A model generated the notes under the pieces. That model was not told the DNA's origin and did no database searches. It saw nothing but the letters and a program-made list of their open reading frames with translations. The translations under genes were made by a program, and so were the position numbers. Positions 1 through 58,040 of a stretch of DNA of 64,000 nucleotides are shown one piece after another. Source of the stretch: Eledone cirrhosa (taxonomy: Eukaryota); NCBI GenBank assembly GCA_964016885.1, contig OZ024747.1, positions 78,244,001 through 78,308,000 of the forward strand, written 5' to 3'. Every line of letters starts with the position of its first letter. The first letter of the stretch is position 1.

Positions 1-3000
1 TATATGTATGTGCTGTGTGAGGTGTGTGTATGTGTGTGAGTGTGTGTAAGGGTGCATGCAAGCACATGTATGTATGTATGTGCTGTGTGAGGTGTGTGTA
101 TGTGTGTGAGTGTGTGTAAGGGTGCATGCAAGCACATGTATGTATGTGCTGTGTGAGGTGTGTGTATGTGTGTGAGTGTGTGTAAGGGTGCATGCAAGCA
201 CATGTATGTATGTATGTGCTGTGTGAGGTGTGTGTATGTGTGTGAGTGTGTGTAAGGGTGCATGCAAGCACATGTATGTATGTGCTGTGTGAGGTGTGTG
301 TATGTGTGTGAGTGTGTGTAAGGGTGCATGCAAGCACATGTATATATGTGCTGTGTGAGGTGTGTGTATGTGTGTGAGTGTGTGTAAGGGTGCATGCAAG
401 CACATGTATGTATGTATGTGCTGTGTGAGGTGTGTGTATGTGTGTGAGTGTGTGTAAGGGTGCATGCAAGCACATGTATGTATGTGCTGTGTGAGGTGTG
501 TGTGAGTGTGTGAGTGTGTGTAAGGGTGCATGCAAGCACATGTATGTATGTGCTGTGTGAGGTGTGTGTATGTGTGTGAGTGTGTGTAAGGGTGCATGCA
601 AGCACATGTATGTATGTATGTGCTGTGTGAGGTGTGTGTATGTGTGTGAGTGTGTGTAAGGGTGCATGCAAGCACATGTATGTATGTACTGTGTGAGGTG
701 TGTGTGAGTGTGTGAGTATGTGTAAGGGTGCATGCAAGCACATGTATGTATGTGCTGTGTGAGGTGTGTGTATGTGTGTGTGTGTAAGGGTGCATGCAAG
801 CACATGTATGTATGTGCTGTGTGAGGTGTGTGTGAGTGTGTGAGTGTGTGTAAGGGTGCATGCAAGCACATGTATGTATGTGCTGTGTGAGGTGTGTGTG
901 AGTGTGTGAGTGTGTGTAAGGGTGCATGCAAGCACATGTATGTATGTGCTGTGTGAGGTGTGTGTATGTGTGTGAGTGTGTGTAAGGGTGCATGCAAGCA
1001 CATGTATGTATGTGCTGTGTGAGGTGTGTGTATGTGTGTGAGTGTGTGTAAGGGTGCATGCAAGCACATGTATGTATGTGCTGTGTGAGGTGTGTGTGAG
1101 TGTGTGTAAGGGTGCATGCAAGCACATGTATGTATGTGCTGTGTGAGGTGTGTGTATGTGTGTGAGTGTGTGTAAGGGTGCATGCAAGCACATGTATGTA
1201 TGTGCTGTGTGAGGTGTGTGTGAGTGTGTGTAAGGGTGCATGCAAGCACATGTATGTATGTGCTGTGTGAGGTGTGTGTGAGTGTGAGTGTGTGTAAGGG
1301 TGCATGCAAGCACATGTATGTATGTGCTGTGTGAGGTGTGTGTGAGTGTGTGTAAGGGTGCATGCAAGCACATGTATGTATGTGCTGTGTGAGGTGTGTG
1401 TGAGTGTGTGTAAGGGTGCATGCAAGCACATGTATGTATGTGCTGTGTGAGGTGTGTGTGAGTGTGAGTGTGTGTAAGGGTGCATGCAAGCACATGTATG
1501 TATGTGCTGTGTGAGGTGTGTGTATGTGTGTGAGTGTGTGTAAGGGTGCATGCAAGCACATGTATGTATGTGCTGTGTGAGGTGTGTGTATGTGTGTGAG
1601 TGTGTGTAAGGGTGCATGCAAGCACATGTATGTATGCGCTGTGTGAGGTGTGTGTATGTGTGTGAGTGTGTGTAAGGGTGCATGCAAGCACATGTATGTA
1701 TGTGCTGTGTGAGGTGTGTGTGAGTGTGTGTAAGGGTGCATGCAAGCACATGTATGTATGTGCTGTGTGAGGTGTGTGTATGTGTGTGAGTGTGTGTAAG
1801 GGTGCATGCAAGCACATGTATGTATGTGCTGTGTGAGGTGTGTGTGAGTGTGTGTAAGGGTGCATGCAAGCACATGTATGTATGTGCTGTGTGAGGTGTG
1901 TGTATGTGTGTGAGTGTGTGTAAGGGTGCATGCAAGCACATGTATGTATGCGCTGTGTGAGGTGTGTGTATGTGTGTGAGTGTGTGTAAGGGTGCATGCA
2001 AGCACATGTATGTATGTGCTGTGTGAGGTGTGTGTATGTGTGTGAGTGTGTGTAAGGGTGCATGCAAGCACATGTATGTATGTGCTGTGTGAGGTGTGTG
2101 TATGTGTGTGAGTGTGTGTAAGGGTGCATGCAAGCACATGTATGTATGTGCTGTGTGAGGTGTGTGTGAGTGTGTGTAAGGGTGCATGCAAGCACATGTA
2201 TGTATGTGCTGTGTGAGGTGTGTGTATGTGTGTGAGTGTGTGTAAGGGTGCATGCAAGCACATGTATGTATGTGCTGTGTGAGGTGTGTGTGAGTGTGTG
2301 AGTATGTGTAAGGGTGCATGCAAGCACATGTATGTATGTGCTGTGTGAGGTGTGTGAGTATGTGTAAGGGTGCATGCAAGCACATGTATGTATGTGCTGT
2401 GTGAGGTGTGTGTATGTGTGTGAGTGTGTGTAAGGGTGCATGCAAGCACATGTATGTATGTGCTGTGTGAGGTGTGTGAGTATGTGTAAGGGTGCATGCA
2501 AGCACATGTATGTATGTGCTGTGTGAGGTGTGTGTATGTGTGTGAGTGTGTGTAAGGGTGCATGCAAGCACATGTATGTATGTGCTGTGTGAGGTGTGTG
2601 TGAGTGTGTGTAAGGGTGCATGCAAGCACATGTATGTATGTGCTGTGTGAGGTGTGTGTATGTGTGTGAGTGTGTGTAAGGGTGCATGCAAGCACATGTA
2701 TGTATGTGCTGTGTGAGGTGTGTGTGAGTGTGTGTAAGGGTGCATGCAAGCACATGTATGTATGTGCTGTGTGAGGTGTGTGTGAGTGTGTGAGTGTGTG
2801 TAAGGGTGCATGCAAGCACATGTATGTATGTGCTGTGTGAGGTGTGTGTATGTGTGTGAGTGTGTGTAAGGGTGCATGCAAGCACATGTATGTATGTGCT
2901 GTGTGAGGTGTGTGTGAGTGTGTGAGTATGTGTAAGGGTGCATGCAAGCACATGTATGTATGTGCTGTGTGAGGTGTGTGTGAGTGTGTGAGTGTGTGTA

Positions 3001-3570
3001 AGGGTGCATGCAAGCACATGTATGTATGTGCTGTGTGAGGTGTGTGTGAGGTGTGTGAGTGTGTGTAAGGGTGCATGCAAGCACATGTATGTATGTGCTG
3101 TGTGAGGTGTGTGTGAGTGTGTGAGTATGTGTAAGGGTGCATGCAAGCACATGTATGTATGTGCTGTGTGAGGTGTGTGAGTATGTGTAAGGGTGCATGC
3201 AAGCACATGTATGTATGTGCTGTGTGAGGTGTGTGTATGTGTGTGAGTGTGTGTAAGGGTGCATGCAAGCACATGTATGTATGTGCTGTGTGAGGTGTGT
3301 GTGAGTGTGTTAGTGTGTGTAAGGGTGCATGCAAGCACATGTATGTATGTGCTGTGTGAGGTGTGTGTGAGTGTGTGAGTATGTGTAAGGGTGCATGCAA
3401 GCACATGTATGTATGTGCTGTGTGAGGTGTGTGTGAGTGTGTGAGTGTGTGTAAGGGTGCATGCAAGCACATGTATGTATGTGCTGTGTGAGGTGTGTGT
3501 GAGGTGTGTGAGTGTGTGTAAGGGTGCATGCAAGCACATGTATGTATGTGCTGTGTGAGTATGAGTGCAT
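1..3570. repeat. Minisatellite, about 56-70 bp variable unit (GTGCTGTGTGAGGTGTGTG...TAAGGGTGCATGCAAGCACATGTATGTAT), running off the left edge
   Basis: About 55 direct tandem copies that differ only in the number of internal TG/TATG blocks. Confidence 0.97.
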
Positions 3571-14907: not shown

Positions 14908-15329
14908 CCATATATATAATTATGGTTGGGTGTGAAATATTGCTTACAAGACAAACGGCACCTATAAAATAAAGTCAAATAAATATAAAAGCTAACCACG
15001 TACTAGAGTAATACACATACACAGGGGTTGCATGATTGAGCCCAGGTAACCTTAGTAGGTAATTGTGACCTTAGTCCAAATTTTGGTGTGGAAATCTTTG
15101 GCTGCCATGATTTTATTCCTCACTAAATTCATAGAAGAACATTCTTTACTACAGACGTTTCTTACCAAAAGTTCCTTTATATATATATATATACTCATTT
15201 TATTATGGTTAAATAGTGAGTTGTGATACTGTGGAGTTTCACCTGAACATTTAAACTTTTCTTCGGTATTGAGTACTCTTTCTATCAGCTTTTAACTACT
15301 TACGGATATCTCTCTCTCTTTCTCTCTCT

Positions 15330-15423
15330 CTATATATATATAGATACATATATAGATATACATATATAAATATATACATATATAGATATACATATATATA
15401 TATAAATATATACATATATAGAT

Positions 15424-15466
<43 letters not shown>

Positions 15467-15810
15467 TATACATATATAGATATACATATATATATATAAA
15501 TATATACATATATAGATACACATATATATATATATATATAAATATATACATATATAGATACACATATATATATATATATAAATATATACATATATAGATA
15601 CACATATATATATATATATAAATATATACATATATAGATACACATATATATATATATAGATACACATATATATATATATATATAAATATATACATATATA
15701 GATACACATATATATATATATATATAAATATATACATATATAGATACACATATATATATATATATATAAATATATACATATATAGATACACACATATATA
15801 TATATATATA
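15330..15810. repeat. Compound TA-derived minisatellite, continuing at 16583-16700
   Basis: Unit ATAAATATATACATATATAGATACAC(AT)n lies on both sides of the 15811-16582 insertion. Confidence 0.9.
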
Positions 15811-16036
15811 TAAACAATTAAGTTAAAAATGTACATCCACATATGTATACTGAAATACTAGTATGCATATGAATACACACACGTGTACATATGTAGATGT
15901 ACCGAGTTTTTCACTGGACACTTTACTGTGAGTGTCCAGCTATTCTGTATGTAAACACACAGACAAACCGGTTTTTAGAGTCATACTGGTTTTCGAGGAA
16001 ACACCTTTCCTCTATTCTCCAGAAAGCCAGACAAGG

Positions 16037-16081
16037 AATATTGGACTAGTTTCGATGTTGTTACATCTCATCAGCAATATT
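16037..16081 (-). ncRNA. Minimal type I hammerhead ribozyme (inverted copy)
   Basis: Exact reverse complement of 16243-16287. Confidence 0.9.
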
Positions 16082-16242
16082 TACCTATTTAATTTCGTTT
16101 CGTTATTTGTTTTTATCGTCTCCGTTGAACCGGTACGTACTCACGCTCTATGCAAATTAGTCTGCCCACTACTAATTTTCATAGAAAAAGCATATAACGA
16201 TATGTGCTTTTACGATTCTCTAGAAAGGCCGGAAGATAGGTA

Positions 16243-16287
16243 AATATTGCTGATGAGATGTAACAACATCGAAACTAGTCCAATATT
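16243..16287 (+). ncRNA. Minimal type I hammerhead ribozyme
   Basis: AATATTG-CTGATGA-GATG TAACAA CATC-GAAA-CTAG-TC-CAATATT: 7-bp stem I, 4-bp stem II, palindromic ACTAGT helix III, GUC cleavage site. Confidence 0.9.
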
Positions 16288-16884
16288 CCTTGTCTGGCTT
16301 TCTGGAGAATAGAGGAAAGGTGTTTCCTCGAAAACCAGTATGACTCTAAAAACCGGTTTGTCTGTGTGTTTACATACAGAATAGCTGGACACTCACAGTA
16401 AAGTGTCCAGTGAAAAACTCGGTACATCTACATATGTACACGTGTGTGTATTCATATGCATACTAGTATTTCAGTATACATATGTGGATGTACATTTTTA
16501 ACTTAATTGTTTAAGCGTCAGTCATACAAAAGTGAGTTACAAACAAAACAAAATTTAATTTCGTTTCGTTATTTGTTTTTATATATATATAAATATATAC
16601 ATATATAGATACACATATATATATATATAAATATATACATATATAGATACACATATATATAAATATATAGATACACATATATATATATATATACATACAT
16701 AATATAAGATCAAAAGATGGTTAAAGGAGTTCCATGTATTTTATTATGCGCATTTCAAAAACAAACATCATCATGCAATAATATTTGTGTTTTCATCAGA
16801 TAAAACAGGAGAACATGATATGAAGGCTAAAAAACACTTGTGGATAGTGCAGTTTGAAATCAACATACATATATATATACATAT

Positions 16885-17220
16885 GGAGGCACATGGCTTA
16901 GTGGTTAGAGCATTGGCCTTGCAATCGAAAGGTTGTGAGTTCAATTCTCAGACCGGGTGATGTGTTGTTTCCTTGAGCAAGACACTTTATTTCACATTGC
17001 TCCAGTTTACTCAGCTGTAGAAATGAGATGATAGGGACTGGGGTCCATATCATTCCACTGCAAAGTGGTCGTGCAGGTGACACGGCAAAAGAGCACCCAG
17101 CACTCACTGTAAATGAGGTTGGTGTTAGGAAGGGCATCCAGATGTAGAAATCAAGCCAAATTCAGTTCCCGTCCCACCCTTGCAAGCAGGGAAAAAGCGG
17201 ACGTAAAATGAAATGATGAT
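16885..17220 (+). mobile_element. tRNA-derived SINE with (TGA)n-type tail
   Basis: A box TGGCTTAGTGG, B box GAGTTCAATTC, CCTTGAGCAAGACACTTT core; 3' block AGGAAGGGCATCC...GGACGTAAA..TGATGAT recurs at about 5090, 9540-9730, 14165, 44485, 47300 and 60480. Confidence 0.85.
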
Positions 17221-21330
<4,110 letters not shown>

Positions 21331-21383
21331 AATAAAATAAAGTTAAATAAAAGTCAAATGATTAAAATTTAGCTTCGTTTATT

Positions 21384-21438
21384 ACTGCTATATATATTTC
21401 AGTGACAGCCATCTTTGGCTGTGACCTCTTCAGGCAGT
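21384..21438 (-). ncRNA. Type I hammerhead ribozyme motif in a 310-bp island between TA fields
   Basis: Minus strand: ACTGC-CTGAAGA-GGTCACAGCCA AAGA TGGCTGTCACT-GAAA-TATATA-TA-GCAGT, followed by AATAAA. Confidence 0.8.
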
Positions 21439-21907
21439 TTGAATTAGTATGGTATAGACAAGTACATATGTTGTTTAGGTGTATGATATTGCCAATACTC
21501 TGATATGCCCAGTTCCTTGTTGGGTTGTTAATTCACTGGGGAACTGGAGTCATATGAATTCAAACAAACTTGCGCACTTCGTCGAGTGCTCCAGCCTGCA
21601 TACTGAGGTGTTGGTATACAACCAACATAAACTCAAAATCTATACATATATACATATATATATATACATATATATATATATACATATATATATACATATA
21701 CATATATATATACATATACATATATATATATACATATACATATATATACATATATATATACATATACATATATATACATATATACATATATATATACATA
21801 TATATATACATATATATATACATATATATATACATATACATATATACATATATATATACATATACATATATATACATATATATACATATATATATACATA
21901 TATATAC

Positions 21908-21954
<47 letters not shown>

Positions 21955-22015
21955 CATACATATATATATATACATATATATATATATACATATATATATA
22001 TACATATATATATAC

Positions 22016-22048
<33 letters not shown>

Positions 22049-22649
22049 CACATATATATATACATATATATATATATACATATATATATACATATATATA
22101 TATATACATATATATATACATATATATATATATACATATATATATACATATATATATATACATATATATATACATATATATATATACATATATATATATA
22201 CATATATATATATACATATATATATATACATATATATATATACATATATATATATACATATATATATATATACATATATATATACATATATATATATACA
22301 TATATATATACATATACATATATACATATATATATATACATATACATATATACATATATACATATATATATACATATATACATATACATATACATATATA
22401 CATATATATATATACATATATATATATACATATATATATATACATATATACATATACATATATATATATACATATATATATATACATATATACATATACA
22501 TATATACATATATATATATACATATATATATATACATATATATATACATATACATATATATATACATATACATATATACATATATATATATACATATATA
22601 CATATACATATATATATATACATATATATATATACATATACATATATAT

Positions 22650-22716
<67 letters not shown>

Positions 22717-22717
22717 C

Positions 22718-22752
<35 letters not shown>

Positions 22753-22761
22753 CATATATAT

Positions 22762-23220
22762 ATAAATTGAAACAAAATGAAAACGAAATTTCATTTCTCA
22801 CTCTTAGCATGGCACTTACTTAAATGTAAGTATGCATGTATACGTACATACATATATGTATACAGACATTTAAGTAAGTGCCATACTAAGAGTGAGAAAT
22901 GAAATTTCGTTTTCATTTTGTTTCAATTTATCGTTTTCGGTATGCCTGACCGATTTAACTCACTCAATATGCAAATTAGGCTGCTCAGCCGTTAATTTTC
23001 ATAAGGAAAGTATATACTTTCGAACGTTCAACTATCTGGCAGATGGGTAAACAGTGCTGATGATAGCTAACAAGCTTGAAACTAGTACATCGTTCCTGTG
23101 TCAGTGTTGAACAAAAAGGTGACGTGGTTGCCTTAACACCGTATGGCATAAATTCAGGCTGTTCAGTTTGTTTACAAACGAACAAAGCGACGTTATAATA
23201 AGCGCCGCTAAACTGATACG
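22762..23220 (+). mobile_element. Diverged relative of the 15811-16582 HHR element, with a 66-bp inverted arm
   Basis: 22762-22827 pairs with 22866-22931; shares TATGCAAATTAG..CTGC...TAATTTTCATA and the HHR with the 16.1-16.3 kb copy. Confidence 0.8.
23050..23094 (+). ncRNA. Minimal type I hammerhead ribozyme (slightly degenerate)
   Basis: AACAGTG-CTGATGA-TAGC TAACAA GCTT-GAAA-CTAG-TA-CATCGTT; one mismatch in stem I. Confidence 0.78.
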
Positions 23221-23302
23221 TGCATATATGTATGTGTACCTGTATGCATATGTATATATGTATGTATATATATATATATATATATATGCATGCTACTGCA
23301 CG

Positions 23303-23333
<31 letters not shown>

Positions 23334-23348
23334 GCATGCTACTGCACG

Positions 23349-23379
<31 letters not shown>

Positions 23380-23461
23380 GCATGCTACTGCACGTCTGTA
23401 TACATATATGTATGTACGTATACATGCATACTTACATATATATATACATATATATATATAC

Positions 23462-23496
<35 letters not shown>

Positions 23497-23497
23497 C

Positions 23498-23572
<75 letters not shown>

Positions 23573-23601
23573 CATATATATACATATATATATATATATA
23601 C

Positions 23602-23716
<115 letters not shown>

Positions 23717-23761
23717 TATATACATATATATATATACATATATATGTATATATATATATAT

Positions 23762-23830
<69 letters not shown>

Positions 23831-23845
23831 TATATACATATATAC

Positions 23846-23880
<35 letters not shown>

Positions 23881-24035
23881 CATATATATATACATATATA
23901 CATATACATATATATATATACATATACATATATATATACATATATATATATATATACATATATATACATATACATATATATATATACATATACATATATA
24001 TATACATATATATATATATATACATATATATATAC

Positions 24036-24068
<33 letters not shown>

Positions 24069-24151
24069 CATATATATATATACACATATATATATATACA
24101 TATATATATATATACATATATATATACATATATATATATATACATATATAC

Positions 24152-24246
<95 letters not shown>

Positions 24247-24620
24247 CATATATATAGATACATATATAGGAACGAGTAGGACCCCGATGGCTGAGCTCAA
24301 GCCGTTTCGACGGCTAATTCTGGACTATATATATATATATATGGATACATATATATATACAGATACATATATATATATATATATGTTTTTAATTGTATGT
24401 GTTTTCCTCCACTCTTGATTTAACTTCTTATATAACATGAGATTTAATAAAAAGATTCTTCTGGCTTAAGGAGGAGGTGGAGAAGGAGGAGAAAGAGGGA
24501 CCAAAAGGAAGAAAAGAAAAGAAAACAATACAAAAAACAACACACAAATGTAGTTAAGAAAATAAAGAAAGAATGGTGAGTGTGGGGTGGGGAGGGGGTA
24601 ATAAAAATGTAAGTACTTAC

Positions 24621-24669
24621 TAGTTTTTTTGTTAAGTTGTTCATCATTAGTATCTGTGAAGAAATAGGT
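24621..24669 (-). CDS. fng: Fringe glycosyltransferase internal exon (49 bp): TYFFTDTNDEQLNKKT(N)
   Basis: Acceptor ttttttttcttttacAG and donor GTaagt; phase 0/1 joins in frame to the next exon; matches the Fringe TFIFTDGED motif. Confidence 0.93.
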
Positions 24670-24838
24670 CTGTAAAAGAAAAAAAAAGTTGATTAATAAT
24701 AAACAAACAACAATAAAGGAGGAAGGGGGTGCTTACCATATTTAATGCAAACTAGAGCAAAATATGAAGAGTGTGTGTATGTGTGTGTATATATAAATAT
24801 ATATATATATACACACACACATATACATACAAATAAAG

Positions 24839-25098
24839 ATTCAGCGAGAATCGCATTTCGGCGGGCAGGAAAAGCAAAGCGAAACGCAAAAATCAGAAAT
24901 GATACTGGCAAAGTGCTCAATAGTTAAAAACCAGAGCTAAACAATGTGTTAAGAAGCCATAAACATATATATAAATTCAGCGAGAATCGCATTTCGGCGG
25001 GTAGAAAAGGCTAAACGAAACGCAATAAATCAGAAATAATGCTGGCAAGCACTCCATAGTTAAAAGACCAGAGCTAAACAATATGTTAAGAGGCCATA
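24839..25098. repeat. Two diverged tandem copies of an about 122-bp element end (period 136 bp)
   Basis: ATTCAGCGAGAATCGCATTTCGGCGGG... at 24839 and 24975. Confidence 0.85.
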
Positions 25099-39763: not shown

Positions 39764-40414
39764 TTTTTTGATACATGATTTTATTTTGATACTCTGCTCC
39801 AGTATGTCAAGATGAGCATTGAGTGCCACCTTGACATATCAGTAGCAGCAGCCAGATGGAAGGTGACAAGGTGGTGGAATGGTATGGAAAATAGAGCTGA
39901 AAGTAGCAGCTAAATCTCCCTCAATAAACTCCCTAAACCTTCATTGTTCACATGACAGTCCTTATTCACATATGCTCTCCATAATGTGTGAAGGAGCGTG
40001 GTCCATTGTTTAGGTTACGGAACTGAACTCATTATTATAAGATCAGGGGTTCAATTCCTGGACCAGGTGGTATGTTTTTGAACAATGCAATTAATTACAT
40101 TGTTGCTAAATTTACAAAAGAAAAAAAAATGAAGTGGCCATGGCTGGAACCCCTTTGAATCAGAGGTTAATTGAATCAGGGTTAGTCTGGGGCTAAACAA
40201 CAACCAGGAAATTGAAACATGACAGAAAATACATATATTTACAAAAATATACAGAAGATCTCTAAATTATGATATATATATATATATATATGAATATAGA
40301 CATAGAATATTCGAAAATATTCTGTATGTTTATAATAAACATTTTGAAGACCTAATCGCTATAGAATAGAATACGTCACGTATTACAATTAGATTCTCGA
40401 TAAAAGCAAGGGAA

Positions 40415-40457
40415 GTAATCTACGCGTTTCATTCTTGTTAGAAATCATCAGGACTAC
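40415..40457 (-). ncRNA. Minimal type I hammerhead ribozyme, first of 5 minus-strand copies (others start at 40725, 41035, 41345, 41655)
   Basis: GTAGTC-CTGATGA-TTTC TAACAA GAAT-GAAA-CGCG-TA-GATTAC; palindromic ACGCGT helix III; GUA site; distal 16-bp helix ATTCTCGATAAAAGCA/TGCTTTTATCGAGAAT. Confidence 0.92.
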
Positions 40458-42382
40458 ATATCCAGTGCTTTTATCGAGAATGACACAGCTAGAGACTTAT
40501 AGAATACTTAGCTGTGTACAGGAACTGGTTTGAAAGAGCGGTTGCCGGTCCGGCAGAAATTAGAAATTGGAATAAATGCTCTGAAATAGCGATATATATG
40601 TGAATATAGACATAGAATATTCGAAAATATTCTGTATGTTTATAATAAACATTTTGAAGACCTAATCGCTATAGAATAGAATACGTCACGTATTACAATT
40701 AGATTCTCGATAAAAGCAAGGGAAGTAATCTACGCGTTTCATTCTTGTTAGAAATCATCAGGACTACATATCCAGTGCTTTTATCGAGAATGACACAGCT
40801 AGAGACTTATAGAATACTTAGCTGTGTACAGGAACTGGTTTGAAAGAGCGGTTGCCGGTCCGGCAGAAATTAGAAATTGGAATAAATGCTCTGAAATAGC
40901 GATATATATGTGAATATAGACATAGAATATTCGAAAATATTCTGTATGTTTATAATAAACATTTTGAAGACCTAATCGCTATAGAATAGAATACGTCACG
41001 TATTACAATTAGATTCTCGATAAAAGCAAGGGAAGTAATCTACGCGTTTCATTCTTGTTAGAAATCATCAGGACTACATATCCAGTGCTTTTATCGAGAA
41101 TGACACAGCTAGAGACTTATAGAATACTTAGCTGTGTACAGGAACTGGTTTGAAAGAGCGGTTGCCGGTCCGGCAGAAATTAGAAATTGGAATAAATGCT
41201 CTGAAATAGCGATATATATGTGAATATAGACATAGAATATTCGAAAATATTCTGTATGTTTATAATAAACATTTTGAAGACCTAATCGCTATAGAATAGA
41301 ATACGTCACGTATTACAATTAGATTCTCGATAAAAGCAAGGGAAGTAATCTACGCGTTTCATTCTTGTTAGAAATCATCAGGACTACATATCCAGTGCTT
41401 TTATCGAGAATGACACAGCTAGAGACTTATAGAATACTTAGCTGTGTACAGGAACTGGTTTGAAAGAGCGGTTGCCGGTCCGGCAGAAATTAGAAATTGG
41501 AATAAATGCTCTGAAATAGCGATATATATGTGAATATAGACATAGAATATTCGAAAATATTCTGTATGTTTATAATAAACATTTTGAAGACCTAATCGCT
41601 ATAGAATAGAATACGTCACGTATTACAATTAGATTCTCGATAAAAGCAAGGGAAGTAATCTACGCGTTTCATTCTTGTTAGAAATCATCAGGACTACATA
41701 TCCAGTGCTTTTATCGAGAATGACACAGCTAGAGACTTATAGAATACTTAGCTGTGTACAGGAACTGGTTTGAAAGAGCGGTTGCCGGTCCGGCAGAAAT
41801 TAGAAATTGGAATAAATGCTCTGAAATAGCGATATATATGTGAATATAGACATAGAATATTCGAATAGGTCTTCAAAATGTTTATTATAAACATACAGAA
41901 TATTTTCGAATATTCTATGTCTATATTCACATATATATCGCTATTTCAGAGCATTTATTCCAATTTCTAATTTCTGCCGGACCGGCAACCGCTCTTTCAA
42001 ACCAGTTCCTGTACACAGCTAAGTATTCTATAAGTCTCTAGCTGTGTCATTCTCGATAAAAGCACTGGATATGTAGCCCTGATGATTTCTAACAAGAATG
42101 AAACGCGTAGATTACTTCCCTTGCTTTTATCGAGAATCTAATTGTAATACGTGACGTATTCTATTCTATAGCGATTAGGTCTTCAAAATGTTTATTATAA
42201 ACATACAGAATATTTTCGAATATTCTATGTCTATATTCACATATATATCGCTATTTCAGAGCATTTATTCCAATTTCTAATTTCTGCCGGACCGGCAACC
42301 GCTCTTTCAAACCAGTTCCTGTACACAGCTAAGTATTCTATAAGTCTCTAGCTGTGTCATTCTCGATAAAAGCACTGGATAT

Positions 42383-42425
42383 GTAGTCCTGATGATTTCT
42401 AACAAGAATGAAACGCGTAGATTAC
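42383..42425 (+). ncRNA. Minimal type I hammerhead ribozyme, one of 6 plus-strand copies (starts 42073, 42383, 42693, 43003, 43313, 43623)
   Basis: Same motif as 40415-40457; the 42073 copy has a T>C change in stem I at 42077. Confidence 0.92.
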
Positions 42426-43822
42426 TTCCCTTGCTTTTATCGAGAATCTAATTGTAATACGTGACGTATTCTATTCTATAGCGATTAGGTCTTCAAAATG
42501 TTTATTATAAACATACAGAATATTTTCGAATATTCTATGTCTATATTCACATATATATCGCTATTTCAGAGCATTTATTCCAATTTCTAATTTCTGCCGG
42601 ACCGGCAACCGCTCTTTCAAACCAGTTCCTGTACACAGCTAAGTATTCTATAAGTCTCTAGCTGTGTCATTCTCGATAAAAGCACTGGATATGTAGTCCT
42701 GATGATTTCTAACAAGAATGAAACGCGTAGATTACTTCCCTTGCTTTTATCGAGAATCTAATTGTAATACGTGACGTATTCTATTCTATAGCGATTAGGT
42801 CTTCAAAATGTTTATTATAAACATACAGAATATTTTCGAATATTCTATGTCTATATTCACATATATATCGCTATTTCAGAGCATTTATTCCAATTTCTAA
42901 TTTCTGCCGGACCGGCAACCGCTCTTTCAAACCAGTTCCTGTACACAGCTAAGTATTCTATAAGTCTCTAGCTGTGTCATTCTCGATAAAAGCACTGGAT
43001 ATGTAGTCCTGATGATTTCTAACAAGAATGAAACGCGTAGATTACTTCCCTTGCTTTTATCGAGAATCTAATTGTAATACGTGACGTATTCTATTCTATA
43101 GCGATTAGGTCTTCAAAATGTTTATTATAAACATACAGAATATTTTCGAATATTCTATGTCTATATTCACATATATATCGCTATTTCAGAGCATTTATTC
43201 CAATTTCTAATTTCTGCCGGACCGGCAACCGCTCTTTCAAACCAGTTCCTGTACACAGCTAAGTATTCTATAAGTCTCTAGCTGTTTCATTCTCGATAAA
43301 AGCACTGGATATGTAGTCCTGATGATTTCTAACAAGAATGAAACGCGTAGATTACTTCCCTTGCTTTTATCGAGAATCTAATTGTAATACGTGACGTATT
43401 CTATTCTATAGCGATTAGGTCTTCAAAATGTTTATTATAAACATACAGAATATTTTCGAATATTCTATGTCTATATTCACATATATATCGCTATTTCAGA
43501 GCATTTATTCCAATTTCTAATTTCTGCCGGACCGGCAACCGCTCTTTCAAACCAGTTCCTGTACACAGCTAAGTATTCTATAAGTCTCTAGCTGTGTCAT
43601 TCTCGATAAAAGCACTGGATATGTAGTCCTGATGATTTCTAACAAGAATGAAACGCGTAGATTACTTCCCTTGCTTTTATCGAGAATCTAATTGTAATAC
43701 GTGACGTATTCTATTCTATAGCGATTAGGTCTTCAAAATGTTTATTATAAACATACAGAATATTTTCGAATATTCTATGTCTATATTCACATATATATCG
43801 CTATTTCAGAGCATTTATTCCA

Positions 43823-43853
<31 letters not shown>

Positions 43854-43854
43854 T

Positions 43855-44237
43855 TCAGGTTTGAGGTTCACCACTGGATAGAGCTGGTCAATTCCGTATG
43901 GTCAATCTCAATGTAATAATATGGAGAGTACTCAACGTAAAGCAGTTCAACCGTCTTTGTTTTTGTAGTTGGTGGTGCTATTACGGAGTTAAATATAATA
44001 ATGAAATGACTTGTGTAAATCCTTGAAAGGTTTATTATACTATGATCATTTATCTATTACATTCACTTATTATATCTATTACATTCACTTATTATATCTA
44101 TTACATTCACTTATTATATTTCGAATACCTGATGATATCACTGGATTCATACGGAACCCGGTCATTGAAATGATCATAGTATAATAAACCTTTCAAGGAT
44201 TTACACAAGTCCAGCCTCCTGTCATTTCATTATTATA
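43855..44237. mobile_element. Fold-back insertion in (TA)n with about 57-bp inverted arms (43993-44237), an internal 3x22-bp repeat, a decayed HHR-like core and a TTGAGTACTC tail on the minus strand
   Basis: TTGTGTAAATCCTTGAAAGGTTTATTATACTATGATCATTT is inverted at about 44168-44210; CTGATGA...CGGAACCCGGTC at about 44129-44163. Confidence 0.65.
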
Positions 44238-44553
44238 TATATATATATATATGGTGGTGTATGTTTGTTTTGCAGAAAACTTTGACTATATATATATATA
44301 TATATATATCTGTATTTTTAACCGTTGGTCAATCAATGATAAACATTGATTGCCAAATAAATTAACTATGGAGATATAAAAGATACAGAAGCGAAAACCA
44401 ACCAAACAGTGAGTGTGTTCTGTTATTATTTCTGGCAATATTATTACAACAATATGACCCTCCCCAAGTATAACAATATATATTGTCCCACCCTTGCAAG
44501 CAGGGAAAAGCAGACGTATGATGATGATGATGATGATGATATTAGAAGTAGTA

Positions 44554-50446: not shown

Positions 50447-52645
50447 ACCCACCCCACTAGCCATATAACTCACATACCCACCCAATAGCCATATAACTCA
50501 CATACCCACCCCAATAGCTATATAACTCACATACCCACCCCAATAGCTATATAACTCACATACCCACCCCAATAGCTATATAACTCACATACCCACCCCA
50601 ATAGCTATATAACTCACATACCCACCCCACTAGCCATATAACTCACATACCCACCCCACTAGCCATATAACTCACATACCCACCCCACTAGCCATATAAC
50701 TCACATACCCACCCAATAACTATATAACTCACATACCCACCCAATAACTATATAACTCACATACCCACCCAATAACTATATAACTCACATACCCACCGAA
50801 TAGCTATATAACTCACATACCCACCGAATAGCTATATAACTCACATACCCACCCAATAGCTATATAACTCACATACCCACCCAATAGCCATATAACTCAC
50901 ATACCCACCCCACTAGCCATATAACTCACATACCCACCCCACTAGCCATATAACTCACATACCCACCCCACTAGCCATATAACTCACATACCCACCCAAT
51001 AGCTATATAACTCACATACCCACCCAATAGCTATATAACTCACATACCCACCCAATAGCTATATAACTCACATACCCACCCAATAGCTATATAACTCACA
51101 TACCCATCCAATAGCTATATAACTCACATACCCACCCCACTAGCCATATAACTCACATACCCACCCAATAGCTATATAACTCACATACCCACCCAATAGC
51201 TATATAACTCACATACCCACCCAATAGCCATATAACTCACATACCCACCCAATAGCTATATAACTCACATACCCACCCAATAGCTATATAACTCACATAC
51301 CCACCCAATAGCTATATAACTCACATACCCACCCAATAGCTATATAACTCACATACCCACCCAATAGCTATATAACTCACATACCCACCCAATAACTATA
51401 TAACTCACATACCCACCCAATAACTATATAACTCACATACCCACCCAATAACTATATAACTCACATACCCACCCAATAGCTATATAACTCACATACCCAC
51501 CCAATAGCTATATAACTCACATACCCACCCAATAACTATATAACTCACATACCCACCCAATAACTATATAACTCACATACCCACCCAATAACTATATAAC
51601 TCACATACCCACCCAATAGCTATATAACTCACATACCCACCCAATAGCTATATAACTCACATACCCACCCAATAACTATATAACTCACATACCCACCCAA
51701 TAGCTATATAACTCACATACCCACCCCAATAGCTATATAACTCACATACCCACCCAATAGCTATATAACTCACATACCCACCCCACTAGCCATATAACTC
51801 ACACACCCACCCAATAGCCATATAACTCACATACCCACCCAATAGCCATATAACTCACATACCCACCCAATAGCTATATAACTCACATACCCACCCAATA
51901 GCTATATAACTCACATACCCACCCAATAGCTATATAACTCACATACCCACCCAATAGCTATATAACTCACATACCCACCCAATAACTATATAACTCACAT
52001 ACCCACCCAATAGCTATATAACTCACATACCCACCCAATAGCTATATAACTCACATACCCACCCAATAACTATATAACTCACATACCCACCCAATAGCTA
52101 TATAACTCACATACCCACCCCAATAGCTATATAACTCACATACCCACCCAATAGCTATATAACTCACATACCCACCCCACTAGCCATATAACTCACACAC
52201 CCACCCAATAGCCATATAACTCACATACCCACCCAATAGCCATATAACTCACATACCCACCCAATAGCCATATAACTCACATACCCACCCAATAGCTATA
52301 TAACTCACATACCCACCCAATAGCTATATAACTCACATACCCACCCAATAACTATATAACTCACATACCCACCCAATAACTATATAACTCACATACCCAC
52401 CCAATAACTATATAACTCACATACCCACCCAATAGCTATATAACTCACATACCCACCCAATAGCCATATAACTCACATACCCACCCAATAGCCATATAAC
52501 TCACATACCCACCCAATAGCCATATAACTCACATACCCACCCAATAGCCATATAACTCACATACCCACCCAATAGCTATATAACTCACATACCCACCCCA
52601 CTAGCCATATAACTCACATACCCACCCAATAGCTATATAACTCAC
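50447..52645. repeat. 26/27-bp minisatellite (ACCCACCCAATAGCTATATAACTCACAT), about 80 copies
   Basis: Seen directly. Confidence 0.97.
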
Positions 52646-54394: not shown

Positions 54395-57300
54395 ATATCA
54401 AAGTGTATGTGTGTGTATATATGCACATATATCAAAGTGTGTGTATATGCACATATATCAAAGTGTATATGTGTGTATATGTACATATATCAAAGTGTAT
54501 GTATATGTACATATATCAAAGTGTGTGTATATGCACATATATCAAAGTATATATGTGTGTATATGTACATATATCAAAGTGTATGTATATGCACATATAT
54601 CAAACTGTGTGTATATGCACATATATCAAACTGTGTGTGTATGTGTACATATATCAAACTGTGTGTGTATATGTACATATATCAAACTGTGTGTGTATAT
54701 GTACATATATCAAACTGTGTGTATATGTACATATATCAAACTGTGTGTGTATATGCACACATATCAAACTGTGTGTGTATGTGTACATATATCAAACTGT
54801 GTGTGTATGTGTACATATATCAAACTGTGTGTATATGCACATATATCAAACTGTGTGTATATGTACATATATCAAACTGTGTGTATATGTACATATATCA
54901 AACTGTGTGTGTATATGCACACATATCAAACTGTGTGTGTATGTGCACATATATCAAACTGTGTGTATATGCACATATATCAAACTGTGTGTGTATGTGT
55001 ACATATATCAAACTGTGTGTGTATGTGTACATATATCAAACTGTGTGTGTATGTGTACATATATCAAACTGTGTGTATATGCACATATATCAAACTGTGT
55101 GTATATGTACATATATCAAACTGTGTGTATATGTACATATATCAAACTGTGTGTATATGTACATATATCAAAGTGTGTGTATGTGTACATATATCAAACT
55201 GTGTGTATATGTACATATATCAAACTGTGTGTATATGCACATATATCAAACTGTGTGTGTATGTGTACATATATCAAACTGTGTGTGTATATGTACATAT
55301 ATCAAACTGTGTGTGTATGTGTACATATATCAAACTGTGTGTGTATATGTACATATATCAAACTGTGTGTGTATGTGTACATATATCAAACTGTGTGTGT
55401 ATGTGTACATATATCAAACTGTGTGTGTATGTGTACATATATCAAACTGTGTGTGTATGTGTACATATATCAAACTGTGTGTGTATGTGTACATATATCA
55501 AACTGTGTGTGTATGTGTACATATATCAAACTGTGTGTATATGTACATATATCAAACTGTGTGTATATGTACATATATCAAACTGTGTGTGTATATGTAC
55601 ATATATCAAACTGTGTGTGTATGTGTACATATATCAAACTGTGTGTGTATATGTACATATATCAAACTGTGTGTGTATATGCACATATATCAAACTGTGT
55701 GTGTATATGCACATATATCAAACTGTGTGTGTATGTGTACATATATCAAACTGTGTGTGTATATGTACATATATCAAACTGTGTGTGTATATGCACATAT
55801 ATCAAACTGTGTGTGTATGTGTACATATATCAAACTGTGTGTATATGCACATATATCAAAGTGTATGTATATGTACATATATCAAACTGTGTGTGTATAT
55901 GTACATATATCAAACTGTGTGTGTATGTGTACATATATCAAACTGTGTGTATATGTACATATATCAAACTGTGTGTGTATGTGTACATATATCAAACTGT
56001 GTGTGTATGTGTACATATATCAAACTGTGTGTATATGTGTACATATATCAAACTGTGTGTATATGTACATATATCAAAGTGTGTGTATGTGTACATATAT
56101 CAAACTGTGTGTGTATGTGTACATATATCAAACTGTGTGTATATGTACATATATCAAACTGTGTGTATATGTACATATATGTGCATATACACACAGTTTG
56201 ATATATGTACATATACACACAGTTTGATATATGTACATATACACACACAGTTTGATATATGTACATATACACACAGTTTGATATATGTACATATACACAC
56301 AGTTTGATATATGTGCATATACACACAGTTTGATATATCAAACTGTGTGTATATGTACATATATCAAACTGTGTGTATATGTACATATATCAAACTGTGT
56401 GTATATGCACATATATCAAAGTGTGTGTATATGTACATATATCAAACTGTGTGTGTATATGTACATATATCAAACTGTGTATATGTACATATATCAAACT
56501 CTGTGTATATGTACATATATCAAACTGTGTGTATATGCACATATATCAAAGTGTGTGTATATGTACATATATCAAACTGTGTGTGTATATGTACATATAT
56601 CAAACTGTGTGTATATGTACATATATCAAACTGTGTGTATATGTACATATATCAAACTGTGTGTGTATGTGTACATATATCAAACTGTGTGTGTATGTGT
56701 ACATATATCAAACTGTGTGTATATGCACATATATCAAAGTGTGTGTATATGTACATATATCAAACTGTGTGTGTATATGTACATATATCAAACTGTGTGT
56801 GTATGTGTACATATATCAAACTGTGTGTGTATGTGTACATATATCAAACTGTGTGTGTATGTGTACATATATCAAACTGTGTGTGTATGTGTACATATAT
56901 CAAACTGTGTGTATATGCACATATATCAAAGTGTGTGTATGTGTACATATATCAAACTGTGTGTATATGCACATATATCAAACTGTGTGTACATGCACAT
57001 ATATCAAAGTGTGTGTATATGTACATATATCAAACTGTGTGTGTATATGTACATATATCAAACTGTGTGTATATGCACATATATCAAAGTGTGTGTATGT
57101 GTACATATATCAAACTGTGTGTATATGCACATATATCAAACTGTGTGTATATGCACATATATCAAAGTGTGTGTATATGTACATATATCAAACTGTGTGT
57201 GTATATGTACATATATCAAACTGTGTGTATATGCACATATATCAAAGTGTGTGTATATGCACATATATCAAACTGTGTGTATATGCACATATATCAAAGT

Positions 57301-58040
57301 GTGTGTATGTGTACATATATCAAACTGTGTGTATATGCACATATATCAAACTGTGTGTATATGCACATATATCAAAGTGTGTGTATATGTACATATATCA
57401 AACTGTGTGTGTATATGTACATATATCAAACTGTGTGTGTATGTGTACATATATCAAACTGTGTGTATATGCACATATATCAAACTGTGTGTGTATGTGT
57501 ACATATATCAAACTGTGTGTATATGTGTACATATATCAAACTGTGTGTATATGCACATATATCAAACTGTGTGTATATGCACATATATCAAACTGTGTGT
57601 ATATGCACATATATCAAACTGTGTGTGTATGTGTACATATATCAAACTGTGTGTATATGTACATATATCAAACTGTGTGTGTATGTGTACATATATCAAA
57701 CTGTGTGTGTATGTGTACATATATCAAACTGTGTGTATATGCACATATATCAAACTGTGTGTGTATGTGTACATATATCAAACTGTGTGTGTATGTGTAC
57801 ATATATCAAACTGTGTATATATGCACATATATCAAACTGTGTGTATATGCACATATATCAAACTGTGTGTGTATGTGTACATATATCAAACTGTGTGTGT
57901 ATGTGTACATATATCAAACTGTGTGTGTATGTGTACATATATCAAACTGTGTGTATATGTACATATATCAAACTGTGTGTATGTGTACATATATCAAACT
58001 GTGTGTGTATATGTACATATATCAAACTGTGTGTGTATGT
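54395..58040. repeat. 26/28-bp minisatellite (ATATCAAACTGTGTGTATATGTACAT) with an internal inverted block at about 56178-56336
   Basis: About 130 copies; 6 units in the middle read CAGTTTGATAT. Confidence 0.97.

What the first reader, a model, noticed from the sequence alone, without database searches (positions are those of the whole stretch)
40291..43829. Head-to-head array of 11 hammerhead ribozymes: a young retrozyme-like element predicted to release 310-nt RNAs
Seen: a 310-bp unit repeated 5 times in one orientation and about 6.3 times inverted, almost mutation-free (I noticed only 42077 T>C and 43286 G>T), flanked by (TA)n. Each unit has a complete type I HHR (GUAGUC/GAUUAC stem I, CUGAUGA, UAACAA loop, GAAA, palindromic ACGCGU helix III, GUA site) closed by a further 16-bp helix, plus other hairpins (ACACAGCTA/TAGCTGTGT). 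No credible protein ORF is present. Established: minimal HHRs with palindromic helix III occur in Penelope-like element pseudo-LTRs and are thought to cleave as dimers, and tandem non-coding HHR repeats of a few hundred bp in animals (non-LTR retrozymes) give monomer-length circular RNAs. Inference: this is a recent multimeric insertion reverse-transcribed from a circular or concatemeric RNA by a Penelope-type RT acting in trans. I cannot tell whether this family is already described.
Basis: partly seen in the sequence, partly recalled or inferred. Interest (0 to 1): 0.93.

Follow-up and report, generated by a model that had tools for sequence, protein, structure and literature searches.

The report
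Ribozyme repeats pasted by double priming
A young, non-coding 310-base parasite with a self-cutting RNA motif has been pasted into TA repeats of this animal genome as back-to-back multi-copy arrays, and their fixed ends and shared private mutations point to a Penelope-type reverse transcriptase copying one, probably circular, RNA from two start points at once.

Summary
In detail: 5.08 + 6.34 head-to-head copies of a 310-bp unit, 11 hammerhead cores, two substitutions, (TA)n flanks. It is one of roughly 1,500-2,500 insertions (estimate) of a young non-LTR retrozyme family. In 63 of 63 two-armed insertions with both ends seen, one arm ends near unit position 130 and the other at 157-172: the 30-40 nt tail and inverted copy typical of Penelope-like elements. 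Private variants are fixed through all units of both arms (30 haplotypes in 69 insertions); arms run through the cut site without stopping; 10 of 10 inherited hammerhead substitutions keep the ribozyme, against 1 of 8 one-off changes. Best reading: a self-cleaved, circularised monomer is copied round and round from two start sites by a Penelope-type RT in trans, and the two cDNAs are end-joined. Against: 2 of 63 insertions need a multi-unit template; no RNA data; cleavage untested; no autonomous partner found. The hammerhead is the canonical dimer-type, not the minimal pLTR type. Known kind of element, but an unusually readable record of how Penelope-type insertion works.

The parts
40272..40290 (.). 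left (AT)n target tract
   Evidence: sequence
40291..41865 (-). left arm: 5.08 units, RNA-sense leftwards, 5' end at unit position 106, 3' end at position 130 (short start site); no substitution
41865..41866 (.). head-to-head (5'-5') junction, blunt
41866..43829 (+). right arm: 6.34 units, 5' end at unit position 67, 3' end at position 170 (long start site); substitutions 42077 T>C and 43286 G>T
42420..42729 (+). one cut-to-cut monomer (310 nt), the predicted released and circularised RNA; reference for unit numbering
42383..42425 (+). type I hammerhead (one of six on plus, every 310 bp from 42073-42115 to 43623-43665): helix I 6 bp, core, U-U plus 3-bp helix II with six-base loop, palindromic helix III, cut after 42419
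40415..40457 (-). type I hammerhead (one of five on minus, every 310 bp up to 41655-41697), cut between 40421 and 40420
42432..42449 (+). 5' strand of the 16-18 bp closing helix (unit 13-30), pairs with unit 248-265 (42667-42684 in the same monomer) and holds the monomer's ends together
   Evidence: folds
42478..42564 (+). long hairpin (unit 59-145) carrying the short start site on its 3' side; region 78% identical in the paralogous family B
43790..43829 (+). 40-bp tail (unit 131-170), present at this end only; holds a 16-nt stretch (43798-43813) shared with families B and C
43830..43854 (.). right (TA)n target tract

Best explanation
A non-autonomous non-LTR retrozyme mobilised in trans by a Penelope-like element (PLE), probably Neptune-type. 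(1) An array is transcribed (inferred; promoter unknown). (2) Two neighbouring units fold into a double hammerhead through the palindromic helix III and cut out a 310-nt monomer whose ends are held together (fold predicted; cleavage inferred). (3) The monomer is closed to a circle, or stays as a base-paired nicked ring; alone it cannot form a stable helix III, so it does not recut (inferred). (4) The PLE protein cuts both strands of a (TA)n tract, and the two DNA ends prime reverse transcription on the same RNA at two fixed sites, about unit 130-139 and 165-172 (pairing of ends and shared template shown by genomic footprints; enzyme inferred). (5) Each RT runs round the ring through the cut site for about 4-5 laps on average and stops at random (arm structure shown; ring inferred). 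(6) The two cDNA ends are joined by microhomology or with a few inserted bases (shown), giving a head-to-head array with a tail at one end. A minority of insertions are copied from multi-unit RNAs.
For: One short plus one long end in 63 of 63 two-armed insertions, and in 42 of 42 after dropping the window and the 20 loci picked because a partner was visible; modal ends 130 (49 arms) and 165 (43 arms) of 133. This matches the inverted 5'-truncated copy, 30-40 bp tail and (TA)n preference of PLEs (PMC8557442) and the two internal RT start sites and extension of both strands shown in vitro for an anole PLE (PMC11167929). An independent run shows loose ends into (TA)n at unit 139 and 170. Either arm may be the longer (32 of 63; rho 0.22), so neither is a fold-back copy of the other. 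28 distinct variants are fixed across units, 30 haplotypes in 69 insertions, 21 seen once, shared by both arms where both cover the site. 120 of 126 arms cross the cut site, 104 twice or more; 1 of 132 5' ends lies within 3 nt of it (3.0 expected). 48 one-off variants in the register shared by both arms are unshared, against 1 shared one-off and 1 shared haplotype switch; about 20 shared substitutions are expected if templates were transcripts of typical arrays (P = 5e-7; 0.003 at half the rate). 10 of 10 inherited hammerhead substitutions are tolerated against 1 of 8 one-off ones (Fisher p = 2.5e-4; 37 of 129 possible changes are tolerated). The minimum-energy fold of the natural stretch 42349-42765 is the double hammerhead (-110.0 kcal/mol; two single hammerheads -92.1). 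24 of 40 junctions without insertion overlap by 2 bp or more, 18% expected. The genome holds 10,596 GIY-YIG candidates, 150 scored, with RT plus GIY-YIG open frames such as L111 (938 aa), and L122 is a protein-coding PLE inserted head-to-head with a tail of about 55 bp.
Against: In L172 both arms switch haplotype after exactly two units counted from the outer ends, and in L161 one variant sits only in unit 1 of both arms: one RNA, but not a monomer ring. L052 arms disagree at one site in 4 units; L037, L064 and L035/36 carry variants in 2-3 units. In vitro the anole PLE inserts as well without ribozyme activity, uncleaved RNA being the main substrate, and 8 of 9 Xenopus retrozyme dimers did not cleave. 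If the donors were very young, uniform arrays, few shared variants would be expected from linear templates too. Outside the hammerhead, selection on the predicted fold is not evident (4 of 15 inherited against 26 of 63 one-off changes break a pair). The tolerance rules are recalled textbook rules, applied after I had seen part of the variant list. No PLE with a matching terminal repeat was found in 48 GIY-YIG loci, 30 family-B loci or 12 motif loci. The sample comes from the first 170 Mb of one chromosome plus the window.
Confidence: 0.68

Rival explanations
1. Same PLE double priming, but the usual template is an uncleaved linear read-through transcript of a uniform donor array; the monomer-to-multimer step is occasional.
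For: L172 and L161 need multi-unit templates; ribozyme activity was dispensable in vitro for an anole PLE; most Xenopus dimers did not cleave.
Against: 30 haplotypes in 69 insertions, 21 seen once, each uniform over up to 22 units, require frequent passage through a single unit; 2 shared cases against about 20 expected; inherited changes spare the ribozyme.
Confidence: 0.2
2. Monomer DNA circles loop out of arrays and are transcribed round and round; the uniform multimer RNA is then inserted by the PLE protein. The ring is DNA, not RNA.
For: Explains uniform private haplotypes and seamless passage through the cut site; general knowledge that tandem arrays shed DNA circles (recalled).
Against: Gives no reason why 10 of 10 inherited hammerhead changes keep the ribozyme; an active ribozyme would cut the multimer RNA.
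Confidence: 0.06
3. A short PLE-end copy inserts and later grows in place by unequal crossing-over, as the discussion of bioRxiv 10.64898/2026.07.22.740005 suggests for retrozyme arrays.
For: Period-7 variant pairs in L035/36 and scattered repeats of a variant in L037 and L064 look like later local duplication or conversion.
Against: Arrays are almost mutation-free (70 one-off substitutions in 205,190 bases) yet average 4-5 units per arm; both inverted arms are multimeric and share private variants; arms shorter than two units would have to expand at most of over a thousand sites in a very short time.
Confidence: 0.04
4. The array or its inversion is an assembly or chimeric-read artefact.
For: The window's junction was not checked with reads; long perfect inverted repeats are hard to assemble.
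Against: Arms end at two different biological sites with different flanks, are unequal in length, and the same anatomy recurs in 64 of 69 insertions with locus-specific haplotypes; another run shows the same ends.
Confidence: 0.02

Closest known systems
Metazoan non-LTR retrozymes (PMC7229834; axolotl Rtz331/Rtz353, coral and mussel repeats)
   Same: Non-coding tandem unit of about 300 bp, low G+C, one type I hammerhead per unit, no LTR. [quoted passage not shown] The paper proposes circles as RT templates giving tandem cDNA, with PLEs as candidate helpers.
   Different: No head-to-head arrangement, fixed ends or tail appear in the passages and discussion I read; its supplement could not be read. 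Expression and circles were shown there and are untested here.
Endonuclease-bearing Penelope-like elements, Neptune/Naiad insertion anatomy (PMC8557442) and Poseidon of Anolis in vitro (PMC11167929)
   Same: Partial tandems, inverted 5'-truncated copy at the 5' end, 30-40 bp tail at one end, microsatellite or AT-rich targets, two internal RT start sites, both strands extended.
   Different: No ORF; arms are many perfect laps of a 310-bp unit; the short start site here can pair with the (TA)n target, whereas the anole sites are not homologous to the target; ribozyme function appears selected here and was dispensable in vitro there.
Vertebrate retrozymes as PLE derivatives (bioRxiv 10.64898/2026.07.22.740005)
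   Same: Same conclusion on the helper class.
   Different: That work rests on co-occurrence and terminal-repeat similarity and discusses local satellite-type expansion; 'tail' does not occur in its text and 'inverted' only in a reference title. Here the link is the insertion footprint, and arrays look multimeric at birth; a matching terminal repeat was not found.
LINE-1 twin priming (recalled)
   Same: Both target ends prime on one RNA and give a 5'-5' inversion junction with microhomology.
   Different: In L1 the second site is variable and the two segments tile the RNA; here both sites are fixed 35-40 nt apart and the arms overlap and repeat.

Membership tests
non-LTR retrozyme | tandem unit of about 150-450 bp, G+C under 50% | tested here: met
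   310 bp, about 34% G+C
non-LTR retrozyme | canonical type I hammerhead in each unit | tested here: met
   11 cores, 10 intact; double-hammerhead fold is the minimum-energy fold; Rfam score below threshold
non-LTR retrozyme | no protein-coding capacity, no LTR pair | tested here: met
   longest stop-free frame 59 aa; no ORF of 100 aa over the array
non-LTR retrozyme | dispersed multi-locus family | tested here: met
   4,541 exact matches of one 37-base hammerhead variant, 0 for the reversed control; 1,224 short-end matches, some internal; 766 long-end matches on the forward strand
non-LTR retrozyme | target site duplication longer than 4 bp where visible | tested here: inconclusive
   unreadable inside (TA)n; the one non-TA site examined (L034) shows 11-15 bp
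non-LTR retrozyme | self-cleavage of the RNA | not testable with these tools
   indirect only: 10 of 10 inherited changes tolerated
non-LTR retrozyme | expression as monomeric linear and circular RNA | not testable with these tools
   no RNA holder listed; 340-base circular contigs in three runs of unknown kind are what a tandem DNA repeat also gives
PLE-type insertion | inverted 5'-truncated copy next to the 5' end | tested here: met
   64 of 69 insertions analysed, 64 of 71 examined
PLE-type insertion | 30-40 bp tail at one end only | tested here: met
   63 of 63 short/long pairs, modal difference 35 nt, 40 nt in the window
PLE-type insertion | microsatellite or AT-rich target | tested here: met
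   (TA)n or TA-rich tracts at the 3' ends of all loci listed except L034; 60 of 71 loci were picked by a pattern that demands TA at one end, 8 of the 9 others with a flank examined beyond the window's own and L034 also have it
non-autonomous derivative of a named PLE | terminal repeat shared with an autonomous element | tested here: inconclusive
   no match in 48 GIY-YIG loci out of 10,596 candidates, nor beside 42 related loci
autonomous PLE | ORF with RT and GIY-YIG endonuclease | tested here: not met
   no ORF in the unit
minimal PLE hammerhead (min-HHR, PMC4209133) | no helix III, short helix I, long helix II with G-C closing pair and extra base | tested here: not met
   helix I 6 bp, helix II 3 bp on U-U, palindromic helix III present

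The most novel reading that the evidence does not exclude
This family is a natural recording of the PLE reaction: one RNA ring is copied at once from two fixed sites by both ends of the cut target, each polymerase lapping the ring, so that tandem copies, the inverted copy and the one-sided tail all arise in a single event. The recent burst of long arrays followed the shrinking of helix III to a dimer-only palindrome, which stops the ring from recutting itself: the older paralogue B, with a 3-bp helix III, has the same two ends but arms of only 265 nt on average (longest 535), and family C has a 4-bp helix III.
Probability: 0.4. Interest if true: 0.8.

Novelty: new member of a known kind. Interest (0 to 1): 0.6.

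Why it matters
How PLEs build their tandem, inverted and tailed insertions, what their hammerheads are for, and whether animal retrozyme circles are really reverse-transcribed are open questions (PMC8557442, PMC11167929, PMC7229834). This family supplies over a thousand near-unmutated insertion products from which start sites, template identity and selection on the ribozyme can be read directly, and a 310-nt RNA that is a ready substrate for a PLE RT assay with linear, nicked and circular templates. If the ring model holds, it is a compact natural system that writes multi-copy inserts from a small circular RNA. The element class itself is known.

Tried and rejected
DNA search of the genome with the unit returned nothing because common words are skipped; patterns were used instead. 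No RNA holder listed among 6 runs; this says nothing on expression. Circular 340-base contigs in X1, X3, X6 were rejected as evidence for circular RNA. Rfam microRNA matches at the junction reflect the inverted repeat. Fold-back copying of one arm from the other: rejected because either arm may be longer. Arm-to-arm hairpin conversion as the source of the L161 and L172 patterns: unlikely, since the shared register counts from the outer ends, not from the centre. Linear cut monomers as end-limited templates: rejected, no 5' ends pile up at the cut. Partner search: Pfam GIY-YIG scan (48 of 150 scored loci looked at), family-B DNA search (30 loci), tail-motif pattern (12 of 167 matches) gave only further non-coding relatives. 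L033 (cut by an N gap) and L038 (single arm) were left out of the statistics; L064 and L173 run off the stretch fetched. A further set of 20 loci could not be fetched, so the sample ends at about 166 Mb of C1. Earlier notes of the scan: none for this genome or sequence; one unrelated fungal note. The host was not identified; the paper search with 'octopus' rested on a guess from the repeat landscape. Repbase and Dfam could not be searched, so the family may already carry a name.
Full report
Observation. The array is as described. With unit position 1 set at window 42420, the first base after a cut, the left arm runs 41865 to 40291 on the minus strand from unit 106 to unit 130 (5.08 units) and the right arm 41866 to 43829 on the plus strand from unit 67 to unit 170 (6.34 units); the 5' ends meet bluntly, and the only substitutions are 42077 T>C and 43286 G>T. 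(AT)n tracts flank it. There are 11 cut sites; the copy with 42077 T>C has a broken pair in helix I. The longest stop-free frame is 59 aa. Rfam gives only sub-threshold hammerhead matches (19.2 bits, gathering 52), but a motif scan finds 15 palindromic-helix-III hammerheads in the window and none in 20 shuffles. The motif is the canonical metazoan type I described in PMC4209133 (passages), not the minimal form. The natural two-ribozyme stretch 42349-42765 folds, unconstrained, into the double hammerhead (-110.0 kcal/mol; helix III between units at probability 0.69-0.77; two separate hammerheads -92.1), which would release a 310-nt monomer with its ends held together.

Family. The genome (3.0 Gb, host not identified) holds 4,541 exact copies of the 37-base hammerhead variant of the window, 1,224 matches to a short-end pattern, some internal, and 766 forward-strand matches to a long-end pattern (the reverse count is inflated by overlapping matches). 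From these I estimate 1,500-2,500 insertions and 15,000-25,000 units (extrapolation). I examined 71 insertions: the window, the first 10 listed by the hammerhead pattern, 20 picked because both end patterns lay close together, 20 picked because no partner was visible, and 20 consecutive short-end hits, all on contig C1. Two were left out of the counts (L033, N gap; L038, single arm). Of 69, 64 are two-armed and head-to-head; 4 are single arms and 1 runs off the stretch. In 63 of 63 pairs with both ends seen one arm ends at unit 118-139 (mostly 130 or 139, ambiguous because the unit has its own AT run there; the lower values come from haplotype variants near the end) and the other at 157-172 (mostly 165); the same holds for 42 of 42 after removing the window and the loci picked as pairs. 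Contigs of an independent run have loose ends into (TA)n at 139 and 170. One-off substitutions number 70 in 205,190 bases, so the burst is very recent.

Link to Penelope-like elements. An inverted 5'-truncated copy, a 30-40 bp tail at one end and (TA)n targets are the PLE signature (PMC8557442, passages). A purified anole PLE protein cuts and extends both strands and starts at two internal RNA sites that define the tail (PMC11167929, parts 1-3 of 4 read). The genome has 10,596 GIY-YIG candidates, 150 scored; several fetched loci carry RT plus GIY-YIG frames (L111 938 aa, L114 636 aa; L113 1,096 aa scored for RT only) with a Cys linker of the Neptune kind as defined in PMC8557442, and L122 is such an element inserted head-to-head in (TA)n with a tail of about 55 bp. 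No PLE with a terminal repeat like the unit turned up in 48 GIY-YIG loci. The search found instead older non-coding relatives: family B (315 bp, 213 of 305 aligned bases identical, same two ends) and family C.

One RNA, two primers. Long-end arms are longer in 32 of 63 pairs and lengths barely correlate (means 1,334 and 1,595 nt), so neither arm is a fold-back of the other. Yet the arms share private variants: 28 distinct variants are fixed across units, giving 30 haplotypes in 69 insertions, 21 seen once; L066 has six variants in all 7 units of both arms. L161 and L172 show the same heterogeneity in the same register from the outer ends, direct evidence that both arms read one molecule. Junctions show microhomology (24 of 40 insertion-free junctions overlap by 2 bp or more, 18% expected, p = 7e-9; three use the 16-bp closing helix) or inserted bases (23 of 63), as expected of end joining of two cDNAs (the repair pathway is inferred).

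Ring or multimer. 120 of 126 arms cross the cut site and 104 do so at least twice; 5' ends are spread evenly (p = 0.25) with 1 of 132 at the cut. Uniform private haplotypes need frequent passage through one unit. Transcripts of typical arrays should hand about 20 in-register substitutions to both arms over the 58,045 shared positions; 1 variant and 1 haplotype switch are seen, against 48 unshared one-offs. All 10 inherited substitutions in the 43-nt hammerhead fall on tolerated positions (N7, loop II, wobble pairs, U-U to A-U), against 1 of 8 one-offs (Fisher p = 2.5e-4; binomial 4e-6 to 3e-5); two inherited one-base insertions in helix I were not scored; the tolerance rules are recalled and were applied after part of the list was seen. 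Inherited changes are even enriched in the hammerhead (10 of 25 against 8 of 70, p = 0.005). Against the ring: L161 and L172 need multi-unit templates; L052, L037, L064 and L035/36 are not uniform; young uniform donors would also give few shared variants; ribozyme activity was dispensable for the anole PLE in vitro; 8 of 9 Xenopus dimers did not cleave (bioRxiv 10.64898/2026.07.22.740005, parts 1-3 of 5 read); selection on the rest of the fold is not evident; no RNA data exist here. I put the ring as main template at about 0.68 and PLE-type double priming at about 0.9.

What is known. Circles as RT templates giving tandem copies were proposed for PLEs (PMC4209133, passages) and for animal retrozymes (PMC7229834, passages and discussion; supplement unreadable, and it may show insertion anatomy). 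Dimer-only cleavage as a way to spare monomer circles is also in PMC4209133. PMC6765202 was read in passages. In six full-text searches and the papers above I saw no report of head-to-head retrozyme arrays with paired fixed ends or of selection on the ribozyme among inherited variants; subscription papers, Repbase and Dfam were not searchable. Verdict: a new member of a known kind, valuable as a test bed. The boldest reading not excluded is that the switch to a dimer-only helix III stabilised the ring and allowed long arrays: family B, with a 3-bp helix III, has arms of 265 nt on average and 535 at most (50 segments in 28 insertions), but B is older (about 5% diverged) and collapse with age is not excluded.

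Noticed in passing
window 43990-44241: A second, unrelated head-to-head mini-insertion right beside the array: inverted arms 44008-44051 and 44168-44211, a hammerhead at +44129 with a long helix II and an 8-base palindromic helix III; the same family lies head-to-head in L116.
   Followed up: partly
window 15811-16580: Head-to-head insertion of another hammerhead family in (TA)n-like DNA: 278-bp arms 100% complementary, cores at -16074 and +16250, and about 65 bp extra at the right end only, again a one-sided tail.
   Followed up: partly
window -16799 and -21433: Two more single hammerheads with palindromic helix III, of families also seen in L116, L123 and L128; five hammerhead families in 64 kb suggest a genome very rich in PLE-derived ribozymes.
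   Followed up: no
L082:2440-2870, L129-L158, L180, L183, L187: Older paralogues of the unit (families B and C) keep the two start sites and a 16-nt tail motif while helix III goes from 4 bp (C) to 3 bp (B) to the palindrome (A).
   Followed up: partly
L111:6560-8300 minus and L128:6180-6950: Terminal repeats of two PLE families carry hammerhead-like motifs with a palindromic helix III but a non-standard core start (U instead of C at position 3, A at position 8), a possible compensated variant.
   Followed up: no
L172, L161, L052, L035/L036: Arrays with register-specific heterogeneity: haplotype switch after two units in both arms, a variant in unit 1 of both arms, arms that disagree in 4 units, and variants repeating with period 7.
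   Followed up: partly
runs X1, X3, X6: In three runs of unknown kind, labelled as different organisms, the unit assembles as a lone 340-base circular contig identical to the window's unit at depth 10-15; such contigs could be mistaken for viroid-like circles in metagenomic scans.
   Followed up: no
window 40291-43829: Read-through transcription from either side would give a perfect double-stranded stem of about 1.57 kb, which could silence the family or block the ribozymes; the promoter that makes usable RNA is unknown.
   Followed up: no
window 16880-17010: A tRNA-like SINE fragment by appearance; label recalled, not tested.
   Followed up: no
window 3-3559, 17219-24268, 50447-52645, 54410-58040: Long minisatellite and (AT)n tracts (66, 16-18, 28 and 26-28 bp periods) make up much of the window.
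   Followed up: no
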